Assembly (NCBI GenBank): GCA_044892525.1
Contig: CM097885.1
Span: forward strand, 4,094,001-4,158,000
Direction: 5' to 3'
DNA from: Schmidtea polychroa
Lineage: Eukaryota
DNA length: 64,000 nt
Part shown: in pieces, positions 41,987-42,507 of the stretch
Position numbering within the stretch: the stretch's first letter is position 1
Layout: each line of letters opens with the position of its first letter
Notes under the pieces: generated by a model
Told to the model about the DNA's origin: nothing
The model's database searches: none
Seen by the model: only the letters and a program-made list of their open reading frames with translations
Position numbers and translations under genes: made by a program

Positions 41987-42507
41987 TTAATTTTTATTTA
42001 AAAATCTGGTTAAAATATACAAAATAGCAACACCTGTTGCAAGTTTTACATAGTTTTTAAATTTTCTTTTCTGATCGTCTATTTCTTTTGCATTTCTGGC
42101 GAGTTGATTGAGTACTCCCCATCCGCCATTGGCTTCAATCCATGGTTGAAACTTTGACTTGATTATCTAGAAAATAAATATTAATAAAATATAAATTATA
42201 AAAGTATTACTTCTTGAGACCACTGATAATAGTGCTCTGAGTCCCATAGACTTCTTTGGATTATTATTTTCATATAAGCGAACCCTACTAGTATTCGGGT
42301 CCACTTCATCTGATCGTCGCATAGACAGTTAAAAATTCTATTAAAATAGAATTTTTTGGTTTCGAGACAATCAGAATTGATCACATCTTCATAATCAATG
42401 TGATTTCCTTCTATGATTTTTTCGGTCCGATCGACCAGGAAACAGAGGCTTTCCATAATATTCCTGTTGACGAGTTCTCTTAAAAGATTTTCCATAAATT
42501 GAGACAT
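41987..42507 (-). CDS. Bcl-2 family protein, two exons (42507-42211, 42166-41987), 158 aa, tail-anchored
   Basis: BH1-like LCDDQMKWTRILVGFAY; after a 44-nt GT-AG intron, BH2 PWIEANGGW; C-terminal TM YVKLATGVAILYILTRFL. Confidence 0.88.

What the first reader, a model, noticed from the sequence alone, without database searches (positions are those of the whole stretch)
41987..42507. Hidden spliced Bcl-2 homologue inside the Maverick
Seen: the ORF track shows only 103 aa. Removing the 44-nt intron 42210-42167 (GTAATA...TTCTAG, phase 0) adds IIKSKFQPWIEANGGWGVL...YVKLATGVAILYILTRFLNKN, i.e. BH2 plus a tail anchor after a BH1-like KWTRILVGF. Known: adenovirus E1B-19K and herpes/pox/ASFV vBcl-2 proteins block apoptosis. 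Inference: an apoptosis regulator carried by a Polinton; the NWGR-to-KWTR change suggests altered BH3 binding.
Basis: partly seen in the sequence, partly recalled or inferred. Interest (0 to 1): 0.88.

Follow-up and report, generated by a model that had tools for sequence, protein, structure and literature searches.

The report
Spliced Bcl-2 gene in a Maverick
A virus-like jumping element in a flatworm-type genome carries a small two-exon gene of the Bcl-2 cell-death-regulator family, which is real and under selection but is a kind of cargo already reported for such elements.

Summary
ORF 42507..42196(-) is 103 aa, and removing the 44-nt GT..AG stretch 42210..42167 joins it in phase to a 59-codon open frame.

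Comparison supports a true intron. In 21 of 24 copies examined, from several diverged families in this genome, both exons are present. The spacer starts with GT in 21/21 and ends with AG in 20/21. Its length runs from 38 to 152 nt, in all three classes modulo 3. dN/dS is 0.12-0.15 for exon 1 and 0.34-0.40 for exon 2.

Exon 1 and exon 2 align without gaps to residues 37-126 and 127-182 of a cellular planarian "Bcl2-like protein". Sister copies with an in-frame intron pass Pfam's Bcl-2 cut-off.

The carrier is a 21.5-kb Maverick (23011-44555) with a 6-bp target duplication, long TIRs, pPolB, integrase and ATPase.

No RNA evidence for splicing was obtained and the structure models were poor. An anti-apoptotic function is inferred only.

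Bcl2 homologues in adintoviruses/Polintons are already in print (PMC8502044). This scan also found the same gene before on other DNA of this genome (e1-7879924). It is a new member of a known kind.

The parts
23011..44555 (.). Whole Maverick/Polinton element (21,545 bp)
   Evidence: The inverted repeat starts at 23011 and 44555 (AGTAGATGGATTGGGCACC...). Internal genes.
23005..23010 (+). Left copy of the 6-bp target-site duplication ATTTAC
   Evidence: Read directly. The same hexamer stands at 44556-44561.
44556..44561 (+). Right copy of the 6-bp target-site duplication ATTTAC
   Evidence: reverse complement of gtaaat on the minus strand.
23011..24222 (.). Left terminal inverted repeat (approximate inner end)
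43221..44555 (.). Right terminal inverted repeat (approximate inner end; the inner part is a simple ATA-type repeat)
   Evidence: poly-Y ORF 43238..43375.
42563..42567 (-). CCAAT box inside the block TCTATCAACCAATCA, which is kept in 8 of 8 printed copies from the diverged families
42536..42543 (-). TATAAATA box about 36 nt upstream of the ATG (candidate promoter)
   Evidence: exact in 7 of 8 copies printed; L052 has TATATATA.
42211..42507 (-). Exon 1, 99 codons (predicted helices alpha1 to about alpha6, including BH1)
42280..42306 (-). BH1-like motif KWTRILVGF (residues 68-76)
   Evidence: Aligned to NWGRIVTIF of BFL-1/A1 and to RWSRVIVAF of the cellular Bcl2-like protein.
42167..42210 (-). 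44-nt phase-0 intron, GTAATA...TTTTCTAG
   Evidence: GT and AG are kept in 41/41 family-A copies. The length is 38-152 nt across the families.
41987..42166 (-). Exon 2, 59 codons plus the TAA stop
42119..42142 (-). BH2 motif WIEANGGW (exon 2 residues 9-16)
   Evidence: Aligned to WIQENGGW of Bcl-xL.
41999..42049 (-). Candidate C-terminal tail anchor VKLATGVAILYILTRFL, flanked by K/R residues
   Evidence: Kyte-Doolittle 15-residue maximum of 1.81 at LATGVAILYILTRFL. It aligns to the C-terminal hydrophobic tail of P0013.
41956..41961 (-). Candidate AATAAA poly(A) signal about 26 nt after the stop (AT-rich context, so it could be chance)
   Evidence: Read. It is not conserved in the other families.
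24907..27474 (-). [quoted passage not shown]
   Evidence: 64% identical to residues 527-1356 of a 1369-aa ORF in a sister element; KLxNNSLYGK and GDTDS are visible in the alignment. The nearest atlas clusters carry PF03175 plus PF02945. Pfam gives only a weak Endonuclease_7 hit.
37232..38353 (-). Retroviral-type integrase with a chromodomain
   Evidence: PF00665 E = 1.2e-5 and PF00385 E = 5e-4, both below Pfam's cut-offs.
38967..39593 (-). A32/FtsK-type packaging ATPase
   Evidence: PF04665 at 30.8 bits, above the 22.8 cut-off.
39693..40130 (+). TBP-like ORF carried by the element
   Evidence: PF00352 E = 1.6e-15.

Best explanation
The gene at 42507..41987(-) is cargo of a young, very high-copy Maverick/Polinton in a planarian-type genome. 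It has a conserved CCAAT/TATA promoter and two exons separated by a short host-type GT..AG intron. After splicing it encodes a 158-aa tail-anchored member of the Bcl-2 family, with a BH1-like KWTR, a canonical BH2 and a C-terminal membrane anchor. Its closest relatives are the cell's own Bcl2-like protein and the Bcl-2 cargo genes of other elements in the same genome.

Shown here: the homology, the intron by comparison between copies, purifying selection on both exons, and the Maverick carrier.

Inferred: the protein inserts into the mitochondrial or ER membrane and holds back the host's Bak/Bax-type death machinery while the element replicates, as viral Bcl-2 proteins do. The sign of the effect (pro-survival versus pro-death) is not shown.
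For: Intron:
- Of 24 copies examined (the window, one family-A copy and 22 copies of diverged families), 21 have both exons. Their spacer starts with GT in 21/21 and ends with AG in 20/21.
- Spacer lengths are 38-152 nt, falling 12, 4 and 5 times in classes 2, 0 and 1 modulo 3. Only removal of the spacer keeps exon 2 in frame.
- Only the proposed exon 2 frame is open.
- Both exons are free of internal stops in 16 of these 21 copies.
- In 41 family-A copies GT and AG are kept in 41/41 and exon 2 is open in 39/41. Variable columns by codon position are 7/1/14 in exon 1 and 8/3/14 in exon 2.
- Between families dN/dS is 0.12-0.15 (exon 1) and 0.34-0.40 (exon 2).

Junction:
- Exon 1 residues 10-99 align to P0013 residues 37-126, and exon 2 residues 1-56 to residues 127-182. 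There are no gaps, with E = 5e-9 and 1e-10.
- In alignment A4 the intron-coded columns are gapped in the seven intron-free paralogue rows.

Family:
- Pfam PF00452 is hit by 10/10 exon 1 sequences (best E = 4.7e-4).
- Read-throughs of sister copies with an in-frame intron score 32.4-34.6 bits over profile positions 6-100, against the 31.4 cut-off.
- PDB profile searches: exon 1 gives 14 of 19 hits named as Bcl-2-family chains (best E = 0.059). For exon 2 all 60 rows shown are Bcl-xL/Bcl-2 (best E = 0.011).
- The top three atlas clusters carry PF00452 (scores 0.93-0.91).

Promoter: the CCAAT and TATA blocks are conserved across families.

Carrier: TSD, TIRs, pPolB, integrase and ATPase.

Copy number: 150 of 150 scored matches out of 2381 first-look candidates.

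Precedent: Bcl2 and IAP homologues in adintoviruses (PMC8502044, passage). Planarian bcl2-1 is described as anti-apoptotic (PMC6970515, passage).
Against: - The window's own two exons score only 17.1 and 11.9 bits against Pfam's 31.4 cut-off when taken singly.
- AlphaFold2 models were poor. Exon 1 alone gave pLDDT 52.6. A sister copy read through its in-frame intron, with a 21-row alignment, gave pLDDT 56.2 and pTM 0.36.
- Foldseek on the second model gave only Bcl-xL/Bcl-2/Bax rows, but with E >= 0.016, TM 0.21-0.33 and rmsd 10-18 A. The fold itself is therefore not confirmed.
- The conserved Gly of NWGR is Thr here. By recall, that Gly matters for partner binding in mammalian Bcl-2.
- Five of 21 copies carry stops, so many copies are decaying.
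- No functional or localisation data exist, and pro-death activity cannot be excluded.
- A tree of 11 Bcl-2 sequences from this genome leaves the position of the gene within its group unresolved.
Confidence: 0.72

Rival explanations
1. The intron is not removed. The product is the 103-aa protein that stops inside the AT-rich spacer, a truncated Bcl-2-like fragment without BH2 and anchor, and exon 2 is untranslated.
For: All database proteins found are unspliced ORFs of 103-112 aa ending 3-13 codons after QWS[QL]E. They come from automatic ORF calls on short contigs.
Against: Exon 2 keeps one open frame, a canonical BH2 and a hydrophobic tail across families that are 64-75% identical. Its dN/dS is 0.34-0.40 and it shows an excess of third-position changes. 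It also continues the alignment to the cellular protein without a gap.
Confidence: 0.07
2. The gene is spliced and folded as a Bcl-2 protein, but it acts as a killer or pore former (Bak/Bax-like). For example it could help release particles or eliminate cells, not protect them.
For: Sequence alone does not separate pro- from anti-apoptotic multi-domain members. BAK chains are among the PDB profile hits of exon 1 (7 of 19). The BH1 Gly is replaced.
Against: No LxxxGD-type BH3 core is visible in exon 1 (read; the motif is recalled). The gene groups, with 97/96 support, with the cellular Bcl2-like protein and away from three other host paralogues. Planarian bcl2-1 is described as anti-apoptotic, although I did not establish that P0013 is bcl2-1. 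By recall, known viral Bcl-2 proteins are nearly all pro-survival.
Confidence: 0.13
3. The gene is a decaying passenger: a once-captured host gene with no present role, kept only because the element amplified recently.
For: The amplification is very recent (97-100% identity among 150 scored copies). Five of 21 copies carry stops.
Against: Families that differ by about 30% at the nucleotide level still keep both frames, the splice sites, the promoter boxes and dN/dS well below 1. That requires selection over a long period of element evolution.
Confidence: 0.08

Closest known systems
Cellular planarian 'Bcl2-like protein' (UniRef C9WPR4_SCHMD, P0013; its locus in this genome is L074)
   Same: The two are colinear and gap-free from residue 37 to 182 of 184. 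They share the S/T-for-G variant of BH1 (RWSR versus KWTR), the BH2 PW(V/I)xxNGGW, the motif WSxE(L/I)I across the exon junction, and a C-terminal hydrophobic tail. P0013 is the nearest cellular sequence by identity (28% for L074 against 13-19% for the other host paralogues).
   Different: Identity is only 24-29%. The element's protein lacks the first 27 or so residues of the cellular one. In the cellular gene the open frame departs from the protein right after GGW, which I recall to be the canonical BH2 intron site, and the next exon is not within the 1.5 kb held. The element's gene is continuous there and has its intron 16 codons upstream. The cellular gene gave one match, whereas the element's gene has thousands of copies.
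Bcl2 homologues of adintoviruses / animal Polintons (Starrett et al. 2021, PMC8502044, section 3.2; passage read, supplementary figures not seen)
   Same: The carrier is of the same class (pPolB plus integrase, a midsize dsDNA virus-like element of animals) and the cargo is of the same kind (an anti-apoptotic-type Bcl2 homologue).
   Different: 'Schmidtea' has no occurrence in that paper's full text (search count); I did not search it for other flatworm names. The passage does not mention an intron.
Viral Bcl-2 proteins of adenoviruses (E1B-19K), herpesviruses, poxviruses and ASFV (recalled; PMC7695858 seen as a listing and abstract only)
   Same: They are small, helical, usually tail-anchored proteins carried by dsDNA viruses to control host apoptosis. 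One atlas cluster near the query mixes Adeno_E1B_19K and Bcl-2 annotations from Preplasmiviricota (score 0.86, a lead only).
   Different: Those are proteins of free viruses with tested function. Here the carrier is an endogenous, massively amplified element, the gene is spliced, and nothing has been tested.
BCL-2 motif in ORF1 of giant Gypsy-like LTR retrotransposons of planarians (Arkhipova and Yushenova 2019, PMC6431247, passage read)
   Same: It occurs in the same host group, and a mobile element carries a Bcl-2-like domain. This genome has many giant open frames (up to 3058-3090 aa) with PF00452 positions 16-100 at about 29 bits.
   Different: There it is a domain inside a polyprotein of a retroelement. 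Here it is a separate small spliced gene with its own promoter in a DNA element.

Membership tests
Bcl-2 family (Pfam PF00452) | Score at or above Pfam's gathering cut-off (31.4 bits) over the BH3-BH1-BH2 region | tested here: inconclusive
   The window's own exons, taken singly, score 17.1 bits (profile 12-66) and 11.9 bits (profile 86-100). The joined product could not be submitted. Sister copies (66-68% identical to the window's exon 1 protein in alignment A4), read through an in-frame intron with X at the stop, score 32.4-34.6 bits over profile 6-100, E = 3e-8 to 1.4e-7.
Bcl-2 family (Pfam PF00452) | BH1 motif (NWGR-type) at the alpha4-alpha5 turn | tested here: inconclusive
   KWTRILVGF aligns to NWGRIVTIF of BFL-1. 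W and R are kept, N becomes K and G becomes T. The host paralogue has RWSR.
Bcl-2 family (Pfam PF00452) | BH2 motif (WIxxNGGW) | tested here: met
   PWIEANGGW aligns to PWIQENGGW of Bcl-xL. All 46 and all 60 shown PDB hits of exon 2 are Bcl-xL/Bcl-2 at this site.
Bcl-2 family (Pfam PF00452) | Globular bundle of about eight helices around a central hairpin | tested here: inconclusive
   The models are all-helical (5 helices in exon 1, 9 in the read-through sister) but of low confidence (pLDDT 52.6 and 56.2). Foldseek lists only Bcl-2-family chains, at E >= 0.016 and TM <= 0.33.
Bcl-2 family (Pfam PF00452) | C-terminal tail anchor (present in many but not all members) | tested here: met
   The hydrophobic stretch LATGVAILYILTRFL (KD 1.81) has K/R on both sides and aligns to the tail of P0013. 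Membrane insertion was not tested.
Bcl-2 family (Pfam PF00452) | Binding of BH3 ligands or regulation of apoptosis | not testable with these tools
   No assay is available.
Maverick / Polinton | Long terminal inverted repeats and a 5-6-bp target-site duplication | tested here: met
   TIRs run from 23011 and 44555 inwards for about 1.2 kb. ATTTAC stands on both sides.
Maverick / Polinton | [quoted passage not shown] | tested here: met
   The 855-aa ORF is 64% identical to the C-terminal 830 residues of a 1369-aa ORF in a sister element, with NSLYGK and GDTDS motifs (motif names recalled). The atlas neighbours carry PF03175 (score 0.98). Pfam itself gave no PF03175 hit. The N-terminal half is not in this ORF.
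Maverick / Polinton | Retroviral-type (rve) integrase | tested here: inconclusive
   PF00665 scores 25.9 bits, below the 32.6 cut-off (E = 1.2e-5), with a weak chromodomain hit.
Maverick / Polinton | FtsK/A32-type packaging ATPase | tested here: met
   PF04665 scores 30.8 bits against the 22.8 cut-off.
Maverick / Polinton | Double and single jelly-roll capsid proteins and an adenain-type protease | not tested
   ORFs 34617-35843, 36216-37286, 30405-31802 and 38415-38948 gave no Pfam family. The 408-aa ORF is 80% identical to its counterpart in a sister element. No fold test was run.

The most novel reading that the evidence does not exclude
In this planarian lineage, control of cell death may be a recurrent need of mobile elements. 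At least three kinds of element each carry their own Bcl-2 module: the Maverick families with the spliced gene, a sister Maverick lineage with an intron-less 144-aa gene that is about 26% identical, and giant LTR retroelements with a Bcl-2 domain inside ORF1.

The Maverick gene lacks the intron that the cellular gene has right after GGW and has a different one 16 codons upstream. This suggests capture as an intron-less copy followed by intron gain inside a virus-like element. If the protein is active, thousands of promoter-bearing copies could measurably shift the apoptotic threshold of the cells that express them, for example stem cells in which the element must replicate to be inherited.
Probability: 0.25. 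Interest if true: 0.6.

Novelty: new member of a known kind. Interest (0 to 1): 0.35.

Why it matters
The finding adds a well-documented case, with comparative proof of an intron and of purifying selection, to the short published remark that animal Polintons/adintoviruses carry Bcl2 homologues.

It shows that such an element relies on host splicing for an accessory gene. It also shows that the gene is related to the host's own Bcl2-like protein, and that planarian genomes hold several independent element-borne Bcl-2 modules.

For genome annotation, a whole family of about 2,000 or more gene copies is currently called only as a truncated 103-aa ORF in public protein sets.

The finding does not open a new kind of biology, and the function remains untested.

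Tried and rejected
RNA evidence
- The look-up of sequencing runs listed no holder on record as RNA.
- Read laying on three runs guessed to be RNA and one DNA-like run, all Logan contigs, showed no joint 42166->42211 in any run. One contig of a run guessed to be RNA runs 10 nt into the intron, and another contig ends exactly at 42166. One run shows untemplated A/T runs at 42189, 42507, 42784 and 42911. The contigs are short because the element is highly repeated, so nothing can be concluded on splicing or expression.

Structure
- Complex prediction with the exon 1 and exon 2 products as two chains gave "no answer" (score 0.00, controls not folded, alignments not used).
- AlphaFold2 on exon 1 alone gave pLDDT 52.6.
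- AlphaFold2 on a sister copy read through its in-frame intron with a 21-row alignment gave pLDDT 56.2.
- Foldseek on that second model gave only weak rows.
- VIA-align was not tried, because the model is too poor.

Sequence searches
- The word-index search and the exhaustive phmmer search over 1.84 billion representatives found only unspliced ORFs: P0003-P0009, 63-98% identical. No annotated full-length relative turned up.
- A PDB sequence search with the 855-aa polymerase ORF gave 0 hits.

Tree
- A tree of 11 Bcl-2 sequences from this genome leaves the donor unresolved. It covered 3 read-through Maverick copies and 8 paralogues. I left out L066 (a near-duplicate of L063) and L079.

Literature
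- 'adintovirus' plus 'Bcl-2' gave 0 papers, because the paper writes 'Bcl2'. I found it by reading PMC8502044.
- 'Schmidtea' with Polinton/Maverick/adintovirus: none of the 15 papers listed contains 'Schmidtea'.
- I found no paper on Mavericks of planarians.

Rejected readings
- Programmed frameshifting or read-through across the spacer is rejected, because spacer lengths fall in all three classes modulo 3 and the spacers contain stops.

Full report
**1. The observation**

The minus strand holds a 103-aa ORF at 42507..42196. At 42210 the sequence reads GTAATACTTTTATAATTTATATTTTATTAATATTTATTTTCTAG, which is 44 nt and ends at 42167. Removing it joins ...TGG TCT CAA GAA to ATA ATC AAG..., a phase-0 junction. 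Exon 1 gives 99 residues. Exon 2 gives 59 residues and is followed by TAA at 41989-41987.

**2. Is the spacer an intron?**

No RNA evidence could be obtained (section 7), so I used comparison between copies. The genome (781 Mb, four very large contigs) holds this gene in very many copies: 150 of 150 scored matches out of 2381 first-look candidates are 97-100% identical to exon 1.

In 41 copies of this family (the window plus 40 loci, of which 20 had been picked for an identical exon 1 protein and are therefore biased for exon 1), one search shows:
- The intron has the same length in all 41, and GT and AG are kept in 41/41.
- Exon 2 is open in 39/41.
- Variable columns fall 7/1/14 on codon positions 1/2/3 in exon 1 and 8/3/14 in exon 2.

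The genome also holds diverged families, found with the database proteins P0009 and P0004. Of the 24 copies examined (the window, one family-A copy and 22 copies of the diverged families):
- 21 have both exons; three showed exon 1 only.
- In all 21 the spacer begins with GT. In 20 it ends with AG; L055 ends in TTG.
- Its length is 38, 39, 41, 44, 46, 47, 52, 54, 93, 131 or 152 nt, mostly through (TTA)n and (TA)n changes. The copies fall 12, 4 and 5 times into classes 2, 0 and 1 modulo 3.

Further points:
- Exon 2 is 59 codons long in the nine intact copies aligned (A3, no gaps) and is 56-75% identical to the window's across the diverged copies.
- Only the proposed frame of exon 2 is open.
- Both exons are free of stops in 16 of the 21 copies.
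- Nei-Gojobori dN/dS between families is 0.12-0.15 for exon 1 (one pair was saturated at synonymous sites) and 0.34-0.40 for exon 2.

A spacer that keeps its GT and AG, changes length freely out of frame, and is flanked by two frames under purifying selection is an intron. Read-through or frameshifting cannot explain this pattern.

**3. The junction**

The last word-index search, made with a host locus (L074), returned a named protein: "Bcl2-like protein", Schmidtea mediterranea, C9WPR4 (P0013, 184 aa, 87% identical to the locus).
- Exon 1 residues 10-99 align to P0013 residues 37-126 with no gap (E = 5e-9).
- Exon 2 residues 1-56 align to residues 127-182 with no gap (E = 1e-10).

The two pieces therefore abut exactly. 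In alignment A4, the residues coded by in-frame introns of sister copies occupy columns that are gapped in the seven intron-free paralogue rows. The motif WSxE|(I/L)IxxKxxPW(I/V)xxNGGW is continuous in L074 and, one residue shorter, in L077.

**4. Family**

- Singly, the window's exons hit Pfam PF00452 at 17.1 bits (profile 12-66) and 11.9 bits (profile 86-100), below the 31.4 cut-off.
- All 10 exon 1 sequences of alignment A2 hit PF00452 (best E = 4.7e-4). Two of 9 exon 2 sequences do.
- Some sister copies have an intron whose length is a multiple of three. Read through with X at the TAG, three of them score 32.4-34.6 bits over profile positions 6-100. The whole-genome Pfam search shows the same for many copies.
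- Against PDB sequences, exon 1's best hit is BFL-1/A1 at the BH1 region (E = 0.11). Seven of 13 hits are named Bcl-2-family chains, plus 3qbr, which I recall to be a schistosome Bcl-2.
- The profile of A2 gives 14 of 19 hits named as Bcl-2-family chains (best E = 0.059).
- All 46 hits of exon 2 and all 60 rows shown for its profile (best E = 0.011) are Bcl-xL/Bcl-2 at BH2.
- The three nearest ESM Atlas clusters carry PF00452 (a lead only).

Read from the sequence:
- KWTR stands where NWGR stands in BFL-1.
- WIEANGGW is a canonical BH2.
- The tail LATGVAILYILTRFL is hydrophobic (Kyte-Doolittle 1.81) and flanked by basic residues.

The fold itself is not confirmed, because both AlphaFold2 models were of low confidence and Foldseek gave only weak, though exclusively Bcl-2-family, rows.

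**5. The carrier**

- The inverted repeat starts at 23011 and 44555, so the element is 21,545 bp long. ATTTAC flanks both ends.
- The element holds an A32-type ATPase above Pfam's cut-off and an rve integrase with a chromodomain, both below the cut-offs.
- It also holds a TBP-like ORF.
- An 855-aa ORF is 64% identical to the C-terminal part of a 1369-aa ORF in a sister element and shows NSLYGK and GDTDS. Its atlas neighbours carry PF03175.
- The element sits in a cluster of host P450 genes.
- The Bcl-2 gene lies about 700 bp inside the right TIR. It is tail-to-tail with an 85-aa acidic ORF and head-to-head with a 166-aa ORF.
- The blocks TCTATCAACCAATCA and TATAAATA upstream of the ATG are kept across the diverged families.

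**6. Relation to host genes and other elements**

The Pfam search of the genome shows four groups:
- Host-type Bcl-2 genes at 47-68 bits.
- The Maverick copies.
- A repeated intron-less ORF (open frame 152 aa; 144 aa from its first ATG) at 33.5 bits.
- Many giant open frames with a Bcl-2 domain at about 29 bits.

The intron-less ORF lies in a sister Maverick lineage. There the 409-aa ORF is 80% identical to the window's 408-aa ORF, the polymerase is 64% identical, and a TBP-like ORF is present.

The giant frames fit the BCL-2 motif reported in giant planarian Gypsy-like elements (PMC6431247, passage).

In a tree of 11 sequences the Maverick gene groups, with 97/96 support, with the cellular Bcl2-like locus, the other Maverick's gene, two further host loci and the retroelement domain. 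It stands apart from three other host paralogues, but the order inside the group is open.

In the cellular gene the open frame leaves the protein directly after GGW, which I recall to be the canonical site of the BH2 intron. The Maverick gene is continuous there.

The cellular paralogue has RWSR and the other Maverick's gene has CWSK at BH1, so KWTR is a clade trait.

**7. What failed**

- No run on record as RNA holds the stretch.
- The contigs laid on it show no joint at the intron and are too fragmented to decide anything.
- Complex prediction gave no answer.

**8. What is known**

- Starrett et al. 2021 state that adintovirus homologues of Bcl2 and IAP were observed (PMC8502044, section 3.2, passage read; supplementary figures not seen).
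- A later preprint says most mammal-associated adintoviruses appear to encode anti-apoptotic homologues (PMC11071296, passage).
- Planarian bcl2-1 is described as an anti-apoptotic factor whose inhibition causes systemic cell death and lysis (PMC6970515 and PMC4993586, passages). I did not establish whether P0013 is bcl2-1.
- An earlier report of this scan on another copy in the same genome reached the same reading (e1-7879924). Other reports describe Bcl-2 genes in Polintons of other genomes.

**9. Verdict**

The finding is real and well supported as a spliced Bcl-2-family cargo gene of a Maverick. Its function is inferred and its fold is unconfirmed. It is a new member of a known kind, of moderate-to-low interest.

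Noticed in passing
window 39693-40130 (+): The element carries a short TBP-like ORF (PF00352, E = 1.6e-15). A sister element has one too (L084:1115-1564, E = 1.9e-14). An earlier scan report (e1-7879962) treats this gene.
   Followed up: partly
L077:378-809(-) = G000:C1:15405777-15406208; context in L083/L084: A sister Maverick lineage (409-aa ORF 80% identical to the window's 408-aa ORF, polymerase 64% identical) carries a different, intron-less 144-aa Bcl-2 ORF. It scores 32.7 bits on PF00452, is about 26% identical to the spliced gene and has CWSK at BH1. It occurs in at least 8 copies.
   Followed up: partly
G000, e.g. C1:207495693-207495962(-) (L079) and about 70 further places: Giant open frames (up to 3058-3090 aa) contain a Bcl-2 domain (profile 16-100, about 29 bits). 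This fits the BCL-2 motif described in giant planarian Gypsy-like retroelements (PMC6431247).
   Followed up: no
window 24907-29516 (-): The window's polymerase ORF begins at the equivalent of residue 527 of the 1369-aa polymerase of the sister element. Directly upstream lies a 547-aa ORF (27747-29390) with a hAT-type dimerisation domain (PF05699, E = 8e-6). The N-terminal half of the polymerase may be replaced, interrupted or encoded in further exons.
   Followed up: no
window 42167-42210 and its counterparts in L055, L057, L058: The intron is a microsatellite hot spot. (TTA)n runs expand it to 93, 131 and 152 nt in some copies, and (TA)n changes give 46, 52 and 54 nt in another family. Within the window's own family it is less variable than the exons (1 variable column in 44 nt, against 7-14 per 100 nt).
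   Followed up: partly
window 42613-43113 (+): A 166-aa ORF lies head-to-head with the Bcl-2 gene. It has hydrophobic N- and C-termini and several N-x-S/T sites, so it may be a membrane glycoprotein. Pfam gave only weak coiled-coil-type hits.
   Followed up: no
window 42189, 42507, 42784, 42911 (run X3): Contigs of one run guessed to be RNA end in untemplated A or T runs of 13-17 letters at these places, on both strands, one of them exactly at the A of the ATG. They could be poly(A) tails, internal priming in AT-rich sequence, or variant copies.
   Followed up: no
G000:C4:89.95-90.83 Mb (L063-L069): Seven near-identical host-type Bcl-2 loci (68 bits, NWGR and NGGW intact) lie within about 0.9 Mb of contig 4. 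This is a segmental or tandem amplification of a cellular Bcl-2 gene.
   Followed up: no
window 10048-11544, 21200-22606, 45781-47301, 57393-58958: Four single-ORF cytochrome P450 genes (PF00067, E = 1e-91 to 1e-99) flank the insertion, so the Maverick landed inside a host P450 cluster.
   Followed up: no
window 3816-7061 (+): A 1081-aa ORF scores 106.8 bits (E = 6e-31) on Colipase-like (PF15083), apparently summed over repeats.
   Followed up: no
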